A DNA stretch of 64,000 nucleotides from a virus. Position numbers and translations under genes: made by a program. Under the pieces are notes generated by a model that was given only the letters and a program-made list of their open reading frames with translations, did no database searches and was not told the DNA's origin. Below are positions 36,794-42,905 of the stretch, piece by piece. Positions within the stretch are counted from its first letter, which is position 1, and each line of letters opens with the position of its first letter. Location of the stretch: UHGV virus genome UHGV-1375844; one strand, 5' to 3'.

Positions 36794-39700
36794 TTAGTTA
36801 CGTTTCGAGTTCGGGTTAAGTGATCCGCCAGGTCTCTTTTCCTGAGCGATGGTTTCGAGTGCGATCGCTTTCATTCGCTGTGCGGCATTGTTCCATGCAC
36901 TCTCTGTGTTAGCGCTCTCTGTTGTGCTTCCATCGCTGTTGACGTTGATCGCAATGGAAACCGGGGACACAACGCTTCCACCACCTTTAAACCCATCGGT
37001 GTTAAGCGTAACCGGAATGGTTCGTCCATCAGGCAGAGGTACGTATGCTTCGTTCATATCCCCTTCGCCAAACAGCGCAAGCTGCGGTGAATTGGCAATC
37101 CCGCCGTTCCGATATGCGCGAAGCGGAACAACGCCGTCCTTGCCGAAAATGCCACCGTTAGCGAACTTAGGAATATCAGGAATACCACTCGTTCCATCCG
37201 CGGCTGAACCGGTCAGGTTGTTAAAACCTGATGTTGAGCTGGATGAGCCAGAAGATGTGCTGTCAAACCCACCTCCTGCCCAGGCAGACGCCAGCCCAGA
37301 GGCGATGGTCATACCAAAGCCCAACCACTTGTTACCTGAACCCGATGCATTCGCGCCCAGCATGGCAAATGCGGCAGAAAGAGCGCCGGTTACAGAACTG
37401 AGGTTTTGCATAGAGAAGATGGAAGTCTTCACCGCTTTGGTTTCGGCATCTTTGGCCTCAGTACTGGTGAACAATCCATTTACCCAGCTGCCGATCGCGT
37501 TCGTTGCCGAGCCGATCGCATTTGCTGTCTCCTGGGTCGTCTGCCCCAGACCGGACACAGAGCTGGAGGTCTCCTTCGTTGCTTCACCTACAGATTTGTC
37601 ACCATTGACAGCGTTCATACGGACGCCCTGGTTCGCGACGGCTGAAGATACGCCTGTCAGCAGGTTTCCGCTTTGAGAGCTGCCGGGCGCCGTCGTCCCC
37701 ATGCCCAGCATGTTCATAAGCGGCAGAGTGATCTGCGTCTTAATAACCATGTTGGTGATGTCACGGAGAATGGATTCGGCCAGGCTGGAGAAATCCATTT
37801 TCCCCTTCATGACAAAGTCGGTGAGCGTGTCTGTCAGGCTACTGAAGAGATTGCTCCAGCTGCTTTCCAGCTGCTCGGCCAGGTTCTCATATTCAAGCGC
37901 CAGCTTTTGTGTAGCAGTCCCGGTCTCTTTAATGAGCGCGGTATTACCAGCGGCAACAAGCTGGTTGATCTGCTTCGTATACAGGGCCACGATTTTCGGG
38001 TCGGAAGCCTGTTCGCGCAGATCCATCAGAGCTTTCAGATTACGATTGTAGGTGTCGTTGAAATCAGCCACCTTCTCTTCACGAGACTTCGTATACCCTG
38101 CGCTAATGATGGAGTCGGACTCCGGCGCCCAGGTAGAGATCATCTGCTCGACGTTGCGGCGATTGAACATCTCACGATAGTCGTCGCTCGCATTCGCCAG
38201 ATCAGCCAGGCGAGATTTTGCCTTGTCGATCATCTCCTGAGTGATGAACTCGTTCGGAACAGCGTTAGCAAGGTCAGTCAGTGATTTTGTGGTATTTCGA
38301 AGAGACTGATCAAACGACACGGTCGCTTTAGAGCTTTCACCCATTTGCCCCATCAGCTGATCGGCTTTATCCAATGCTTTCTGGTAGCCGGCCGCCAGTT
38401 TACGCTGCGCACTCTCTTCTTTCTTCGCTGCACGCTGGGCAGCGTTTGCTGTACGCTGGCCCGCTTTTTCTGCTGCTGCTGCGTCCTGCTCACGCGCTTT
38501 GGTAAGAGCGGCAATAGCTGCGGTTCGCTCCTCATCGCTCATTTTCTCCAGAGAACTGGCACTTGAGGCTTTTTGCAGGTTCAGCTGAGTCTTGAGCTGC
38601 TTAGGCCCAATAATCGGCTTACCCTCAAAGTCCATCATCGGTGTGCCGTCTGGCAAGGTTCGCTGGTACGTTCCAGAATCCATCTGGTTGCGCATAAACT
38701 GAGCCACAGCTTTCTGAGCAGCTTTATCGGTCGTCCCCAGGCCCAGAACCGTCCCCTGGTTGGAAAGGACGCCCTTACCAGTTTTGGCCGCATTATCACG
38801 CTCAAACTCTGCCTGAGTCAGTTCCTGAGCAACCGCCTCCAGATGCTCCTGATAGCCGCGAATACTCCCTTGCAGCTTCTGTACCTGCTCGGTATTACCC
38901 TCCTTTTTGGCTTTCTCCAGCAGGTCGCTAAAATGTGCAATCTGCTTTTCGGTAGCAGTCTTACGTGATGACAAAGAGTCGACCAGCTTTTGTGCTGGTT
39001 CCAGATAGGACTTGTTTACCGTTTCGCGAAGCGGTTTGAGCAGGTTGTTCTTCTCTTCGTCAGAGAGAGATTTGTCGTCATTGATTTTCTGGATCTGTTC
39101 CAGTGCATCCTGACGCGCCTTCACGAATGTCGCGGAAAATACCTGGTTATCCGCACGGATTTTTTCAATCTGGGATTCGGCAGCCTCTTTTGCCAGACGC
39201 TTCGCTACAGCGCCATCCCCAAGCGCGATCGTGCCGGTGAGCGTTTTGTACTCTTCCTGATTCTTTTTCAGGCGAGCCTCAATATCAGCCTTCGACTCAG
39301 TAACGGTCACAGCACCGACAGTGCGAGAGACATAGTTCAGCCCTTGCCCTGTTTTCAGGGCTTGCTGGTCTGCCTGAATTTCTTTTTCAAGTTTGCCTGC
39401 ACGTTCTGCCATCTGCGCACGTTTGGCCGCCGTCATCGCTTCCGGGATCTTGCGAATCTCGTCCACAACTTTTGACGTTTCGCTGCGGAGCATGGTCATA
39501 TACGTGATCAGCCCGGCAACAGCTACGGTAGCAACGGTAAAAGCTGCACCAATGGGGTTGGCTGCGATGAACGCAGTCAGTCCGGCGAAAGCTCCCTGCA
39601 GACCCGTAATCGCACCACGAATGGCAAAAATGAGTGATGGGATCGGGGCCAGGCCCAACCGAGCTGCGCGGTTGAATCGGGTAATGGCCGTCGCGCCAAG

Positions 39701-41395
39701 ATTGAACGGCGCCTGGAGAACAGTCGACATCGTCGCGAACGTATTCACCATCTGTCCGGCTGTGCCGATCACGCCCATGATGCCGGCTCGCATCAGTTTG
39801 AAAGCCACCATCGCGGCCACAACCTTACCGAGATTGATGATCAGTTCCTGATTCTTCGCCAACCACTGAGCCAGCTCTCTCAGGGCGTCAATAGCAGTGG
39901 AAAGACCAGCTCCCAGAGAATTAGCAAAGGAAATGCCTTCTGCGCTGTTCATGATGGAAGCCAGCTCTTTCATCCCCTTGGAAAGAGAATCCAGATAGCC
40001 CGCCTGACCGATGCGATCAGCAAACAACGTGAAGGAGGTTTGCAGCTGCGCCAGCGCACCGGTGTAGGTTTGCATCATGTCTTTGGCCGCGTTTTCGTTT
40101 TCAGCACGCAGCCCAACAAACATCAGCGATAGCGCCTGTTTCGCTTCCACTGTACCGGTGGAAACTGCTTTGGTCAGTTCCCCCATAGTGATACCGGCAG
40201 CGTCTGCCATCGCTTTCATCGCGTTAGGAACGGCTTCACCCAATTGCTGACGCAGTTCTTCCATCGACACGACGCCCTTACCGGACATCTGCTGGACAGC
40301 TACGGCTGCACGTTTAAGTAGTTCACTGTCCCCGCCAAAACGTGCGACCGAGTCCACCAGCGCTTTCAAAGAGCCGTCAGTAGGATCAAGACCAGCCGAA
40401 CGGAATTTGACGAAGGAGTCGGTCAGCGCCTGCATAGCGAACGGGGCATTTTGTGCCATATTGACGATGTACTGCATATCGTCAGCGGCCGCCTGGCCAG
40501 GGTTGGCCTTGTCCTTATTCAGACCGCGCAGCATGACGCGCATACGCTCCATCTCGGCAGCGGCTTCAATAATCGGCTTCTGCCAACCGAAAAGAATGTC
40601 GGTTACTGTTCGGGCCGCATCACCGATCTCACCCAACAGAAAAATGTTACCGCGCAGCCCGGAGAACATGCCTCCTTCATAGCTTCTGCCGCCATGACCG
40701 GAAGACCAGCCGCGGCGACCATTTCCGCCATAACCAGAGCCATTCCCATCGCCCGTCGCCCGGACACGTACCGGTTTGCTAATGAGCTGCTGGCGACTGA
40801 TAACCGCATCCATCTGATCGCGGACCTTTTTAAGCCCTTCGGCAGCCTGGTTGGTCGTGACGCCCCAATTACTTAATCGCTTAGTTGTGGTGTTAAGGCG
40901 TGTATTCATGCCGCTGACGGATGCAGAGGCTTCCTTTACCTCCGTACCAAAGCGGCCAGCGCTTTTGCTCGCAAACGTTGCCCAATCTGAAAACTCATTG
41001 AGTTCAGACTGAACCTTTCGCAGCGAGGAAGTCAGTTTGTTGACGGATGAGATTGTGTGGTCGACTCTTTCAACCAGGGTTTTTAAGCCTGAGTTGAGAC
41101 TGGTGATGTTGCTACGCGTTTTACGAGAAGCATCAGAAACAAGCTCGAAGCCGGCAGCTACGTCCTGTAGTTTGTCTGCCGTGGCATCGAGCTTAGATTC
41201 AAGAACGCCGATGATGCGGGAGACCGAACCCAGCGAGCGTTCCAGACTATTAATTTTTTGAGCTGGCTTAGTGGCCTGCTCTCCGAATCTGGTAAGTAGC
41301 TTACCCGCCCGGTCAATTGACGCTGTAAACTGTTTGTCTTCCAGCGACAGGATAAACTCTACGTTTTGTGACATTCCCTTGTCATCCTCTGCCAA
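36794..41395 (-). CDS. Tail tape measure protein
   Basis: 1533 aa, largely helical, directly downstream of the G/GT chaperone genes. Confidence 0.85.
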   Translation of the reverse strand: MAEDDKGMSQNVEFILSLEDKQFTASIDRAGKLLTRFGEQATKPAQKINSLERSLGSVSRIIGVLESKLDATADKLQDVAAGFELVSDASRKTRSNITSLNSGLKTLVERVDHTISSVNKLTSSLRKVQSELNEFSDWATFASKSAGRFGTEVKEASASVSGMNTRLNTTTKRLSNWGVTTNQAAEGLKKVRDQMDAVISRQQLISKPVRVRATGDGNGSGYGGNGRRGWSSGHGGRSYEGGMFSGLRGNIFLLGEIGDAARTVTDILFGWQKPIIEAAAEMERMRVMLRGLNKDKANPGQAAADDMQYIVNMAQNAPFAMQALTDSFVKFRSAGLDPTDGSLKALVDSVARFGGDSELLKRAAVAVQQMSGKGVVSMEELRQQLGEAVPNAMKAMADAAGITMGELTKAVSTGTVEAKQALSLMFVGLRAENENAAKDMMQTYTGALAQLQTSFTLFADRIGQAGYLDSLSKGMKELASIMNSAEGISFANSLGAGLSTAIDALRELAQWLAKNQELIINLGKVVAAMVAFKLMRAGIMGVIGTAGQMVNTFATMSTVLQAPFNLGATAITRFNRAARLGLAPIPSLIFAIRGAITGLQGAFAGLTAFIAANPIGAAFTVATVAVAGLITYMTMLRSETSKVVDEIRKIPEAMTAAKRAQMAERAGKLEKEIQADQQALKTGQGLNYVSRTVGAVTVTESKADIEARLKKNQEEYKTLTGTIALGDGAVAKRLAKEAAESQIEKIRADNQVFSATFVKARQDALEQIQKINDDKSLSDEEKNNLLKPLRETVNKSYLEPAQKLVDSLSSRKTATEKQIAHFSDLLEKAKKEGNTEQVQKLQGSIRGYQEHLEAVAQELTQAEFERDNAAKTGKGVLSNQGTVLGLGTTDKAAQKAVAQFMRNQMDSGTYQRTLPDGTPMMDFEGKPIIGPKQLKTQLNLQKASSASSLEKMSDEERTAAIAALTKAREQDAAAAEKAGQRTANAAQRAAKKEESAQRKLAAGYQKALDKADQLMGQMGESSKATVSFDQSLRNTTKSLTDLANAVPNEFITQEMIDKAKSRLADLANASDDYREMFNRRNVEQMISTWAPESDSIISAGYTKSREEKVADFNDTYNRNLKALMDLREQASDPKIVALYTKQINQLVAAGNTALIKETGTATQKLALEYENLAEQLESSWSNLFSSLTDTLTDFVMKGKMDFSSLAESILRDITNMVIKTQITLPLMNMLGMGTTAPGSSQSGNLLTGVSSAVANQGVRMNAVNGDKSVGEATKETSSSVSGLGQTTQETANAIGSATNAIGSWVNGLFTSTEAKDAETKAVKTSIFSMQNLSSVTGALSAAFAMLGANASGSGNKWLGFGMTIASGLASAWAGGGFDSTSSGSSSSTSGFNNLTGSAADGTSGIPDIPKFANGGIFGKDGVVPLRAYRNGGIANSPQLALFGEGDMNEAYVPLPDGRTIPVTLNTDGFKGGGSVVSPVSIAINVNSDGSTTESANTESAWNNAAQRMKAIALETIAQEKRPGGSLNPNSKRN

Positions 41396-41744
41396 AAATT
41401 TGCATCAGTTGCTCTTTGGCGTCAGGGTCTGCCTTATCCTTACGTGGATCGTAGACTTTATCGGTAACGACTGGTCTTCCAATCCTGAGTTGCAAACCCT
41501 CCATGAACGCCTTCACGCCCTCGCCATCTGCCTGGGCAGCGCGAGCGACTTGTAGGTTGCGGACATCCTCTTCCGCACGTAGACGGTCGATGTTGCGACT
41601 GAGCATCCAGAACATCGTGAGAGGGACGCCCAGCAGCTCTATTGGCGACACGGCGTAGTGAGCAACTACACGACTGAAATAGAACCCGAGATCTATCGAG
41701 ACGGTCTTTATCCCGGATTCATCGCGGGAAACTACTTTGCCCCT
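41382..41744 (-). other. Candidate -1 frameshift extension of the tail assembly chaperone (GT fusion segment)
   Basis: Frame -1 relative to G is open from 41744 to the stop at 41382 and overlaps the G stop; proposed slip on A-AAG with TAG in the A site (caAAGTAG, 41732-41739). Confidence 0.4.
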
Positions 41745-42049
41745 TCACCAGCCGCTTTTTCGTTCTCTTCATCAATCACTTCCATAGCGAAGGTGAAGAT
41801 CTGCTGAAGCTGCGGAACAGTTAGTTTTTCCAGCACTGCATCAGGTACGGATGGGATGACCTTGCGCACAAGATCGGCATAGGCAGTAACCTGCTCTACC
41901 GGGGACATGTTCTGAAGGTCTTTCCCTTCCATTTGTTTGATGGAAACGAACAGGCCAACAGTCATTTCAACGATGGGGTATTCCTGACCGCCGAATTTGA
42001 TGCTTTTCTTCGGAGGCAGAATGGAGTCGAGATCGAGTAATTTGGTCAT
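41732..42049 (-). CDS. Tail assembly chaperone, lambda G-like
   Basis: 105 aa acidic protein between the major tail and tape measure genes. Confidence 0.6.
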   Translation of the reverse strand: MTKLLDLDSILPPKKSIKFGGQEYPIVEMTVGLFVSIKQMEGKDLQNMSPVEQVTAYADLVRKVIPSVPDAVLEKLTVPQLQQIFTFAMEVIDEENEKAAGEGAK

Positions 42050-42109: not shown

Positions 42110-42856
42110 TTAACTGGCAGCAGTCACCGTTACAGATTTGGTGGCCTTCTTGCCGCCGCTATTAGCAGTAAACGAAATGTTGACTGCGCCTTCTGCAACA
42201 CCGCGAACCAGTCCGGACTGGTCTACGGTTGCTTTTTGTGGATCTTCTGATGCCCAGACACCGGTTTTGTCTGCAACATCATCTGGTTGAACTTGCGCCG
42301 AAAGTTGAACCGTAGCCCCTACTTTGCAGGTCGGTGAACCCGGAGAGATGGTTACGGTTTTAACCGGCTTTGGGCCGCTCATTTTCCCCAGAACGCCGTT
42401 GTCATCCGGATATGCGGTGAACTGAACGGAGAAAACGCGAACATCATCAGACTGGTAGGTCATGGTGAAGTTGCCTGCGGTTGCGGCTTTCGGGATTGTC
42501 AGAACGTAGTCGGTCGTATCCTGCGGGGTCAGAATCAACTCTTTAGCAACGTCGATCAGGTTGACGCCCTGGGCAGAGGTAATGGTCACAGAATTGTCTT
42601 CTTCGCTCATGGTTGAACCAGGCATAAGATCGACCATGTTCTGCAACACGGACTCGGCCAGCGGCGCAGTGATGGTAATGTTACGACCCTGTACCAATTC
42701 TGAGATGGTGGTCTGCCCCAACTGGTCGACGGTCACTTTGAGGGTCTCTGTCGCAACTTCGACCTGAACGCCGCCTTTGGTGTAACCCAGATCCACGCCA
42801 CCAAACGACACTTTACAAGCGCCAAGTTTGATGTTTTTTACATGGGTATTGGACAT
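42110..42856 (-). CDS. Major tail protein with C-terminal Ig-like (Big_2-like) domain
   Basis: Start re-placed at ATG 42856 (MSNTHVKNIKL) with AAGGAG RBS; C-terminal TVTISPGSPTCKVGATVQLSAQV Ig-like segment. Confidence 0.7.
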   Translation of the reverse strand: MSNTHVKNIKLGACKVSFGGVDLGYTKGGVQVEVATETLKVTVDQLGQTTISELVQGRNITITAPLAESVLQNMVDLMPGSTMSEEDNSVTITSAQGVNLIDVAKELILTPQDTTDYVLTIPKAATAGNFTMTYQSDDVRVFSVQFTAYPDDNGVLGKMSGPKPVKTVTISPGSPTCKVGATVQLSAQVQPDDVADKTGVWASEDPQKATVDQSGLVRGVAEGAVNISFTANSGGKKATKSVTVTAAS

Positions 42857-42905
42857 TGTTGGAAAACTCCTTTTTCCGTTAATCGGCACCGTCATCGTGC
42901 CAATG

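What the first reader, a model, noticed from the sequence alone, without database searches (positions are those of the whole stretch)
41382..42049. Candidate -1 programmed frameshift at a shifty stop producing a G-T tail-chaperone fusion
The frame -1 relative to the G-like gene is open from just before the G stop through 41382. The G gene ends ...GCA AAG TAG; slipping of Lys-tRNA from AAG to AAA with the stop codon in the A site would continue as ...AK-VVSRDESGIKTV.... A G/GT frameshift is conserved in tailed phages, but the site here is not the canonical XXXYYYZ heptamer.
Basis: partly seen in the sequence, partly recalled or inferred. Interest (0 to 1): 0.4.

Follow-up and report, generated by a model that had tools for sequence, protein, structure and literature searches.

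The report
Unannotated tail-chaperone G/GT frameshift site
Between the tail-tube and tape-measure genes of this SSU5-like phage-plasmid, a small gene almost certainly uses a programmed backward (-1) ribosome slip at the short site A_AAG next to its stop codon to make a longer fusion protein, an ordinary phage trick at an unusual site that no database record seen here annotates.

Summary
On the minus strand a 105-codon gene (42049..41732) ends GCA AAG TAG. The -1 frame opens only four codons before that stop and runs to 41382, just ahead of the tape-measure gene.

Comparison supports a programmed -1 frameshift giving a 222-aa G-T fusion:
- A_AAG plus a stop is invariant in 74 distinct sequences from about 100 related loci, and the synonymous third base of the preceding Ala/Val codon is always A.
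- The 28 codons between the stop and the first possible start codon are under purifying selection only in the -1 frame (pN/pS 0.24 against 1.9 and 1.7).
- The first start codon in that frame moves from +26 to +116 nt between relatives.
- Distant relatives with the same gene order carry canonical heptamers (G_GGA_AAG, A_AAA_AAG, G_GGA_AAA) at the same place, also shifting -1.
- Sister lineages use CCA_AAG_stop to add an Ig domain to the major tail protein.

It is unresolved whether the stop codon helps ("shifty stop") or the slip is the known NNA_AAG type. The chaperone identity rests on gene order and weak fold matches. This is a new, unannotated member of a known kind.

The parts
42110..42895 (-). 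Major tail protein gene with a C-terminal Big_2 Ig-like domain fused in frame; the upstream neighbour of G.
   Evidence: ORF. Pfam Big_2 E 7e-23 at residues 177-255. Annotated 'Ig domain containing protein / tail protein' in SSU5 and Cyrano.
41732..42049 (-). G-like ORF (105 aa, 11.6 kDa), the zero-frame product; includes the stop TAG at 41734..41732.
   Evidence: PHROG 893, function unknown. Predicted fold is a beta-hairpin plus four helices, pLDDT 72. 12 of the top 50 BFVD fold hits are named tail assembly chaperone.
41745..41747 (-). TGA stop in the -1 frame. It sets the upstream limit of where the shift can occur.
   Evidence: Read directly from the sequence.
41735..41740 (-). Shift site GCA_AAG. 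tRNA-Lys re-pairs from AAG (41737..41735) to AAA (41738..41736).
   Evidence: A_AAG is invariant in 74 of 74 distinct related sequences. The 5' codon is always GCA or GTA, with third base A in 74 of 74, while neighbouring four-fold sites vary.
41732..41734 (-). Zero-frame stop TAG directly after the shift codon (TAA in most relatives).
   Evidence: The stop is adjacent in 74 of 74 sequences: TAA 67, TAG 7.
41385..41735 (-). T segment, 117 codons read in the -1 frame after the shift (GTA GTT TCC ...). The stop TGA is at 41384..41382. The GT fusion is 222 aa, 24.7 kDa.
   Evidence: In the first 28 codons pN/pS is 0.24 in this frame, against 1.89 and 1.65 in the other two. The peptide KV[IV][ST]R[DE]E.G..SID[LF]GFYF is conserved from the shift site onward. 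PHROG 1131 covers only the part that databases annotate.
41682..41720 (-). Conserved hairpin candidate: 5' arm 41720..41710 (GAAUCCGGGAU), 3' arm 41692..41682 (AUCUCGGGUUC). It starts 14 nt after AAG. Its role is unproven.
   Evidence: Helix 1 is 98% paired in 20 diverse sequences. Pair 28-63 occurs as UA 15, GC 3, AU 1, UG 1; pair 37-57 as AU 8, GC 6, GU 6. RNAalifold predicts the same helix. Against it: stability is no better than shuffled sequence, z -0.68, and by my reading (no tool count) it is broken in L109.
36794..41374 (-). Tape measure protein gene. Its probable start is ATG 41374, after AAGGGA; it is the downstream neighbour.
   Evidence: ORF. Relatives carry Pfam TMP_3 and Tape_meas_lam_C. 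The start matches the SSU5 annotation and the sequence.

Best explanation
This is the tail assembly chaperone pair of an SSU5-like phage-plasmid, expressed by a programmed -1 ribosomal frameshift.

Most ribosomes translate the 105-aa G protein and terminate at TAG. A minority slip back one base at GCA_AAG. The single E. coli-type tRNA-Lys (anticodon mnm5s2UUU) leaves AAG and re-pairs with the overlapping AAA. The next codon read is GTA, and translation continues for 117 codons to give a 222-aa G-T fusion.

By analogy with lambda gpG/gpGT, G and the G part of GT coat the tape measure protein, and the T part recruits the major tail protein. The fixed low G:GT ratio then comes from the slip frequency.

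What is shown: the two frames, the conserved site, and coding selection on the -1 frame from the site onward.

What is inferred: the fusion protein itself, its function, and the sub-mechanism. The sub-mechanism may be an A-site, translocation-linked slip of the NNA_AAG type. It may be a P-site slip while the stop codon waits in the A site. Or it may be both.
For: 1. Site conservation. A_AAG followed by a stop is invariant in about 100 loci, 74 distinct sequences, down to 37-55% protein identity. The flanks vary: GGG GCA, GAA GCA, GAC GTA, GAA GTA. The third base of the Ala/Val codon is a synonymous site in G and untranslated in T. It is A in 74 of 74, whereas nearby Gly and Ala codons use three or four different third bases.

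2. Coding selection. The 28 codons between the G stop and the window's first in-frame GTG give pN/pS 0.24 in the -1 frame, against 1.89 and 1.65 in the other frames. Variable sites by codon position are 17/8/25.

3. No conserved start. The first ATG/GTG/TTG in the T frame lies at +26, +83, +101, +104, +113 or +116 nt in different relatives. Gene callers give products of 74 to 109 aa for the same ORF.

4. Distant relatives. They share the gene order terminator - tail tube - G - T - tape measure and have T in the -1 frame. Their sites are G_GGA_AAG (L114), A_AAA_AAG (L112) and G_GGA_AAA (L110), one to three codons before the G stop.

5. A second site of the same design. CCA_AAG_TAA/TGA joins the tail-tube core to a Big_2 domain in the -1 frame in L011-L014, L094, L095, L107 and L108.

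6. Precedent. A_AAG is the most shift-prone tetramer in E. coli (PMC4066793). NNA_AAG sites work in B. subtilis cdd and in IS1222 (PMC5009743).

7. Structure prediction. The T model places a beta-hairpin at residues 2-14, inside the stretch that databases leave unannotated.
Against: - There is no protein-level evidence for the fusion.
- Without a stimulator, A_AA.G gave only about 0.15% shifting in a reporter, and no convincing stimulator was found here.
- The upstream SD-like AAGGGG is not conserved.
- The conserved hairpin starts 14 nt after AAG, beyond the usual 5-9 nt. It is no more stable than shuffled sequence. By my reading it is broken in L109.
- The stop context UAGU/UAAU is, from my own knowledge of E. 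coli termination signals, a strong one. That does not favour a long pause at the stop.
- G and T hit no curated chaperone family.
Confidence: 0.85

Rival explanations
1. There are two separate genes. The downstream ORF is translated on its own from GTG 41651 or the ATG about 36 nt further on, as every database record annotates it. No fusion is made.
For: All 12 phage records and the listed rows of the 232 matching E. coli plasmid records (one search shows 12 of them) annotate two hypothetical proteins. PHROG 1131 models only the annotated part.
Against: The 28 codons upstream of that GTG are under purifying selection in this frame only. The start position is not conserved. The conserved motif SID[LF]GFYF lies upstream of the annotated starts. 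By direct reading, no Shine-Dalgarno sequence precedes the GTG or the ATG. Distant relatives have canonical slippery heptamers at the junction.
Confidence: 0.05
2. Termination-reinitiation. Ribosomes finish G at the stop and restart nearby in the -1 frame at a non-canonical codon (ATT, ATA or GTT). This would give a free T protein that includes the conserved N-terminal stretch.
For: In most relatives an ATT follows GTA two codons after the shift point, and AAGGGG lies upstream in the SSU5 subgroup.
Against: That codon is GTT in the window, ATA in the Klebsiella group and GAA in L107, so no start-capable codon is conserved. The SD-like run is absent in diverged relatives. This model does not explain the invariant A before AAG or the heptamers in distant relatives.
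Confidence: 0.03
3. Transcriptional slippage, or a sequencing or assembly error, or a decaying gene split by a frameshift mutation.
For: None specific. These are generic alternatives for any split reading frame.
Against: The run is only three A's, too short for polymerase slippage (established knowledge). The same arrangement occurs in about 100 independent assemblies from many genera, with both frames under selection.
Confidence: 0.02
4. Sub-mechanism rival. The stop codon is incidental. The slip is the known A-site, translocation-linked NNA_AAG event, and G simply ends there because the overlap is minimal.
For: NNA_AAG sites work without an adjacent stop in cdd and IS1222, with efficiency set by the wobble capacity of the 5' tRNA (PMC5009743). 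Here the 5' codon is always GCA or GUA; from my own knowledge both are read by cmo5U34 tRNAs. The relatives' heptamers put AAG or AAA in the A site.
Against: Both independent tetramer sites in this phage group (G/T and tail tube/Ig) have the stop directly adjacent. Four of five heptamer sites do not. The sample is small.
Confidence: 0.45

Closest known systems
Phage lambda G/GT tail assembly chaperone frameshift (Levin, Hendrix & Casjens 1993; Xu, Hendrix & Duda 2004; summarised in PMC5009743)
   Same: Two overlapping ORFs lie between the major tail protein gene and the tape measure gene. [quoted passage not shown] The second ORF has no start of its own. Lys AAG is the slipping codon. A long fusion is expected at low yield.
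   Different: Lambda uses the heptamer G_GGA_AAG, with two tRNAs slipping and the G stop further downstream. Here only A_AAG can re-pair and the stop follows directly. There is no detectable sequence similarity to the Pfam lambda-type G or T families.
NNA_AAG / Z_ZZN minimal -1 sites: Bacillus subtilis cdd (A_CGA_AAG), IS1222 (G_CGA_AAG), synthetic A_AA.G constructs (PMC5009743; PMC4066793)
   Same: A single-tRNA slip of tRNA-Lys from AAG to AAA. The 5' codon ends in A and is read by a tRNA with broad wobble.
   Different: Those cases rely on an upstream SD-like element or a downstream pseudoknot. No well-placed stimulator was found here. The 5' codon here is GCA or GUA rather than CGA. A stop codon is adjacent.
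'Shifty stop' frameshifting (Weiss et al. 1987; prfB +1 at CUU_UGA)
   Same: The shift-prone codon is immediately followed by a stop. That stop could hold the ribosome with an empty A site while the P-site tRNA re-pairs.
   Different: prfB shifts +1, needs an SD three nt upstream and has a weak stop context. Here the shift is -1, the SD-like run is not conserved, and the context UAAU/UAGU is strong.
Ig-like domains added to phage structural proteins by programmed frameshifts (Fraser et al. 2006; recalled from my own knowledge, not read here)
   Same: In sister lineages the Big_2 domain of the tail tube protein lies in the -1 frame behind CCA_AAG_stop.
   Different: In this window the Big_2 domain is fused in frame, so no shift is needed there.

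Membership tests
G/GT-type tail assembly chaperone frameshift | A pair of ORFs located between the major tail protein gene and the tape measure gene | tested here: met
   The order is Big_2 tail protein 42895..42110, G 42049..41732, T to 41382, tape measure from 41374. Relatives have the same order, with PF12691 terminator and TMP_3/Tape_meas_lam_C.
G/GT-type tail assembly chaperone frameshift | The second ORF overlaps the end of the first in another frame and lacks a conserved start of its own | tested here: met
   The -1 frame opens 10 nt before the G stop. The first start codon varies from +26 to +116 nt among relatives. Coding selection begins at the shift site.
G/GT-type tail assembly chaperone frameshift | A canonical X_XXY_YYZ slippery heptamer in the overlap | tested here: not met
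   The site is G_GCA_AAG; only A_AAG can re-pair. Distant relatives do have G_GGA_AAG, A_AAA_AAG and G_GGA_AAA.
G/GT-type tail assembly chaperone frameshift | The arrangement and the shift direction are conserved among relatives | tested here: met
   T is in the -1 frame in all of about 100 close loci and in six distant loci.
G/GT-type tail assembly chaperone frameshift | Sequence or fold relationship to known tail assembly chaperones | tested here: inconclusive
G/GT-type tail assembly chaperone frameshift | A fusion protein is made at a low fixed ratio and is needed for tail assembly | not testable with these tools
   This needs protein detection and genetics.
NNA_AAG / Z_ZZN minimal -1 frameshift sites | A_AAG in the correct phase, so that tRNA-Lys can re-pair on AAA | tested here: met
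   GCA_AAG is in the zero frame and invariant in 74 of 74 sequences.
NNA_AAG / Z_ZZN minimal -1 frameshift sites | A stimulator at working distance: an SD-like element 10-14 nt upstream, or a structure 5-9 nt downstream | tested here: inconclusive
   AAGGGG directly upstream is not conserved. The conserved hairpin starts 14 nt downstream, shows some covariation, but has z -0.68. No Rfam frameshift element matches.
Shifty-stop frameshifting | A stop codon immediately 3' of a codon whose tRNA can re-pair in the new frame | tested here: met
   AAG is followed by TAG or TAA in 74 of 74 sequences. The tail-tube/Ig site CCA_AAG_TAA/TGA has the same design.
Shifty-stop frameshifting | Shifting depends on slow termination (a weak stop context, or sensitivity to release factor level) | not testable with these tools
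   The base after the stop is U in nearly all sequences, which from my own knowledge is a strong context in E. coli. Dependence on release factors needs an experiment.

The most novel reading that the evidence does not exclude
NNA_AAG_stop may be a distinct -1 recoding cassette that depends on the stop codon. This phage-plasmid group would have adopted it at least twice independently: G to GT, and tail tube to tail tube-Ig. It would replace the canonical heptamers still present in distant relatives. Its efficiency, and therefore the chaperone ratio and the Ig decoration of the tail, would be tuned by release-factor activity in the host.
Probability: 0.3. Interest if true: 0.6.

Novelty: new member of a known kind. 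Interest (0 to 1): 0.4.

Why it matters
SSU5-like phage-plasmids (the relatives found here come from E. coli, Salmonella including serovar Typhi, Klebsiella, Cronobacter, Citrobacter, Shigella and others) are common in clinical enterobacteria. The locus is on plasmids of 232 of 5426 complete E. coli genomes.

In every record seen, their tail chaperone genes are annotated as two hypothetical proteins, with arbitrary starts for the second. Recognising the frameshift corrects the annotation of a gene likely to be essential for tail assembly.

The case also shows why motif-based predictors miss it. PRFect lists no backward motif made of only three identical bases (PMC10274946).

It offers a natural series in one protein family: a tetramer next to a stop, and canonical heptamers in relatives. 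That series could be used to test how much an adjacent stop codon contributes to -1 shifting at minimal sites.

Tried and rejected
- Pfam, NCBIfam and PHROGs on G and T gave no named family.
- Foldseek of the G model against the PDB found nothing significant.
- A profile of 79 G homologues against PDB sequences found nothing.
- An Rfam scan of 41550..41850 gave only chance-level snoRNA matches.
- A literature search for SSU5 plus frameshift returned nothing relevant. The Licznar 2003 paper is not held, so I relied on its summary in PMC5009743.
- The upstream AAGGGG was considered as an SD-like stimulator and rejected because it is not conserved.
- An outer helix CGCGAU/GUCGUG would bring the structure to +13. 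By my own inspection of the sequences it is absent in diverged relatives, and RNAalifold did not predict it, so it was rejected.
- The +1 frame stops after five codons (read), so a +1 shift is excluded.
- The length of the open -1 frame was tried as a statistic. It is not discriminating in this dense genome.
- The script mislabelled the frames. I re-derived the frames of L113 and L114 by hand.
- The T model has pLDDT 66, too low for a fold search.
Full report
WHAT IS THERE

The finding lies on the minus strand of a window that is 83-89% identical to Salmonella phage SSU5, Escherichia phage Cyrano and Klebsiella phage-plasmids. It is about 95% identical to plasmids present in 232 of 5426 complete E. 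coli genomes.

Read 5' to 3' on the minus strand, the order is:
- a major tail protein with a C-terminal Big_2 domain, 42895..42110;
- a 105-codon ORF, 42049..41732, here called G;
- an open frame that ends at TGA 41384..41382;
- the 1.5-kb-codon tape measure gene, whose likely start is ATG 41374.

G ends GCA AAG TAG. The -1 frame carries a TGA at 41747..41745 and is then open (AGG GGC AAA GTA GTT TCC ...) for 120 codons. A -1 shift can therefore happen only within four codons. AAG->AAA is the only re-pairing there that keeps all three base pairs. The +1 frame closes after five codons.

IS THE -1 FRAME TRANSLATED FROM THE SHIFT POINT?

I collected about 100 related loci from phage records, viral contigs, genomes and metagenomes. 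This gave 74 distinct sequences around the junction.

Three results bear on the question.

First, site conservation. A_AAG followed directly by a stop is invariant, although the flanking codons change: GGG GCA, GAA GCA, GAC GTA, GAA GTA, GAC GCA.
- The most telling position is the third base of the Ala/Val codon before AAG. It is synonymous in G and is not translated in T.
- It is A in 74 of 74 sequences.
- The Gly and Ala codons a few positions upstream use three or four different third bases.

Second, coding selection. The 28 codons between the G stop and the window's first in-frame start (GTG 41651) give pN/pS 0.24 in the -1 frame, against 1.89 and 1.65 in the other two frames. Variable sites by codon position are 17/8/25. 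The peptide KV[IV][ST]R[DE]E.G..SID[LF]GFYFSRV is conserved from the very first codon after the shift, even at 49-55% identity.

Third, no conserved start. The first ATG/GTG/TTG in that frame sits at +26, +83, +101, +104, +113 or +116 nt in different relatives. Gene callers have produced products of 74, 77, 86, 89, 108 and 109 aa for the same ORF. No protein longer than 151 aa was listed by either of the two protein searches of the 5.8-billion-sequence collection, so no fusion was found there.

DISTANT RELATIVES

A profile search with G found a family of about 100-120-aa proteins, 413 cluster representatives. I looked up six of them. All have the same gene order and have T in the -1 frame.

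| Locus | Site at the end of G |
|---|---|
| L109, L113 | GCA_AAG_TAG / GCA_AAG_TAA |
| L114 | GAG_GGA_AAG_GAA_TAA, the lambda heptamer G_GGA_AAG |
| L112 | GCA_AAA_AAG_CAG_TAA, the dnaX heptamer A_AAA_AAG |
| L110 | G_GGA_AAA |
| L111 | G_GGG_AAG_TAA |

In one search my script mislabelled the frames, so I re-read them by hand.

A -1 frameshift is thus a family trait. The SSU5 clade carries a reduced site.

A SECOND SITE OF THE SAME DESIGN

In a sister lineage (L011-L014, L094, L095, L107, L108) the tail-tube core ORF ends CCA AAG TAA, or TGA in L107. An 86-aa Big_2 domain follows in the -1 frame.

L107 and L108 differ by TGA/TAA. That is stop/stop in frame 0 and Val/Val (GTG/GTA) in frame -1.

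In the window this domain is fused in frame (GGC CCA AAG CCG GTT AAA), so no shift is needed there.

MECHANISM

From the literature read here:
- The minimal -1 site is a Z_ZZN tetramer.
- A_AAG is by far the most shift-prone tetramer in E. coli: 5.6% with a pseudoknot stimulator, and about 0.15% on average for tetramer constructs without one.
- NNA_AAG works naturally in B. subtilis cdd and in IS1222.
- Its efficiency depends on the wobble capacity of the tRNA reading the 5' codon (PMC4066793; PMC5009743).

Here the 5' codon is always GCA or GUA. From my own knowledge, both are read by cmo5U34 tRNAs.

The stop is adjacent at both tetramer sites of this phage group, but at only one of five heptamer sites. 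This hints that the stop contributes a pause. The sample is small, and the context UAAU/UAGU is a strong terminator in E. coli (my knowledge).

A hairpin with arms 41720..41710 and 41692..41682 is conserved:
- Helix 1 is 98% paired in 20 diverse sequences.
- Two pairs show compensatory changes.
- RNAalifold finds the same helix.

Against a role for it: it starts 14 nt after AAG, it is no more stable than shuffled sequence (z -0.68), and by my reading (no tool count) it is broken in L109. I list it as a candidate only.

The upstream AAGGGG is not conserved. No Rfam element matches.

IDENTITY AS A TAIL CHAPERONE

The gene position is the classical one. Family searches are silent.

The G model (pLDDT 72) is a beta-hairpin plus four helices. 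Fold comparisons gave:
- BFVD: 12 of the top 50 matches are named tail assembly chaperone, best E 3e-4, TM 0.65.
- Pfam on remote homologues: 3 of 79 touch Phage_TAC_7 weakly.

So the function is inferred from gene order plus weak fold evidence.

VERDICT

A programmed -1 frameshift producing a 222-aa, 24.7-kDa G-T fusion is very likely; I put it at about 0.85.

It is a new member of a known kind, and it is not annotated in any record seen here. It has an unusual minimal site abutting the stop. The role of that stop is the one open mechanistic point.

Noticed in passing
L011-L014, L094, L095, L107, L108 (for example L013 1686-1949); window equivalent about 42380..42360, minus strand: In a sister lineage the major tail protein core ends CCA AAG TAA (TGA in L107), and an 86-aa Big_2 Ig-like domain follows in the -1 frame. 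This looks like a second programmed frameshift of the same NNA_AAG_stop design. In the window the domain is fused in frame (GGC CCA AAG CCG), so no shift is needed there.
   Followed up: partly
L103 about 943-1100; L104 about 1003-1110: The Morganella and Xenorhabdus relatives end their tail-tube gene with the canonical heptamer A_AAA_AAG. The stop is adjacent in L104 and one codon later in L103. Short charged -1 extensions of 48 and 32 aa follow. Their function is unknown.
   Followed up: no
window 41372..41395 (minus strand): The mechanical ORF list starts the tape measure gene at TTG 41395, overlapping the end of T. The SSU5 annotation and the AAGGGA-ATG context point to ATG 41374, ten nucleotides after the last base of the T stop (seven untranslated bases in between).
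   Followed up: partly
L099 (Yersinia pestis NCTC5923, 108-kb contig); L096 and L100 (metagenome bins labelled Bacillota / Fimivivens): The same G/T locus, 82-97% identical, occurs on a 108-kb Y. pestis contig. It also occurs in metagenome-assembled genomes assigned to Firmicutes. Given the enterobacterial sequence, the Firmicutes assignment is probably a binning error.
   Followed up: no
window 41651..41680 (minus strand), GUGUAGU ugcuc ACUACGC: A second 7-bp hairpin is predicted about 55 nt downstream of the shift site. It is nearly invariant in the SSU5 subgroup (one G-C pair becomes G-U in L033) and is not kept in diverged relatives. It was not analysed further.
   Followed up: no
alignment A1 columns 256-420 (window about 41805..41640): The last 70 nt of G and the first 90 nt after the shift site are almost invariant at the nucleotide level among eight SSU5-like phages, while the body of G shows many synonymous changes. 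Dual coding explains only the downstream part.
   Followed up: no
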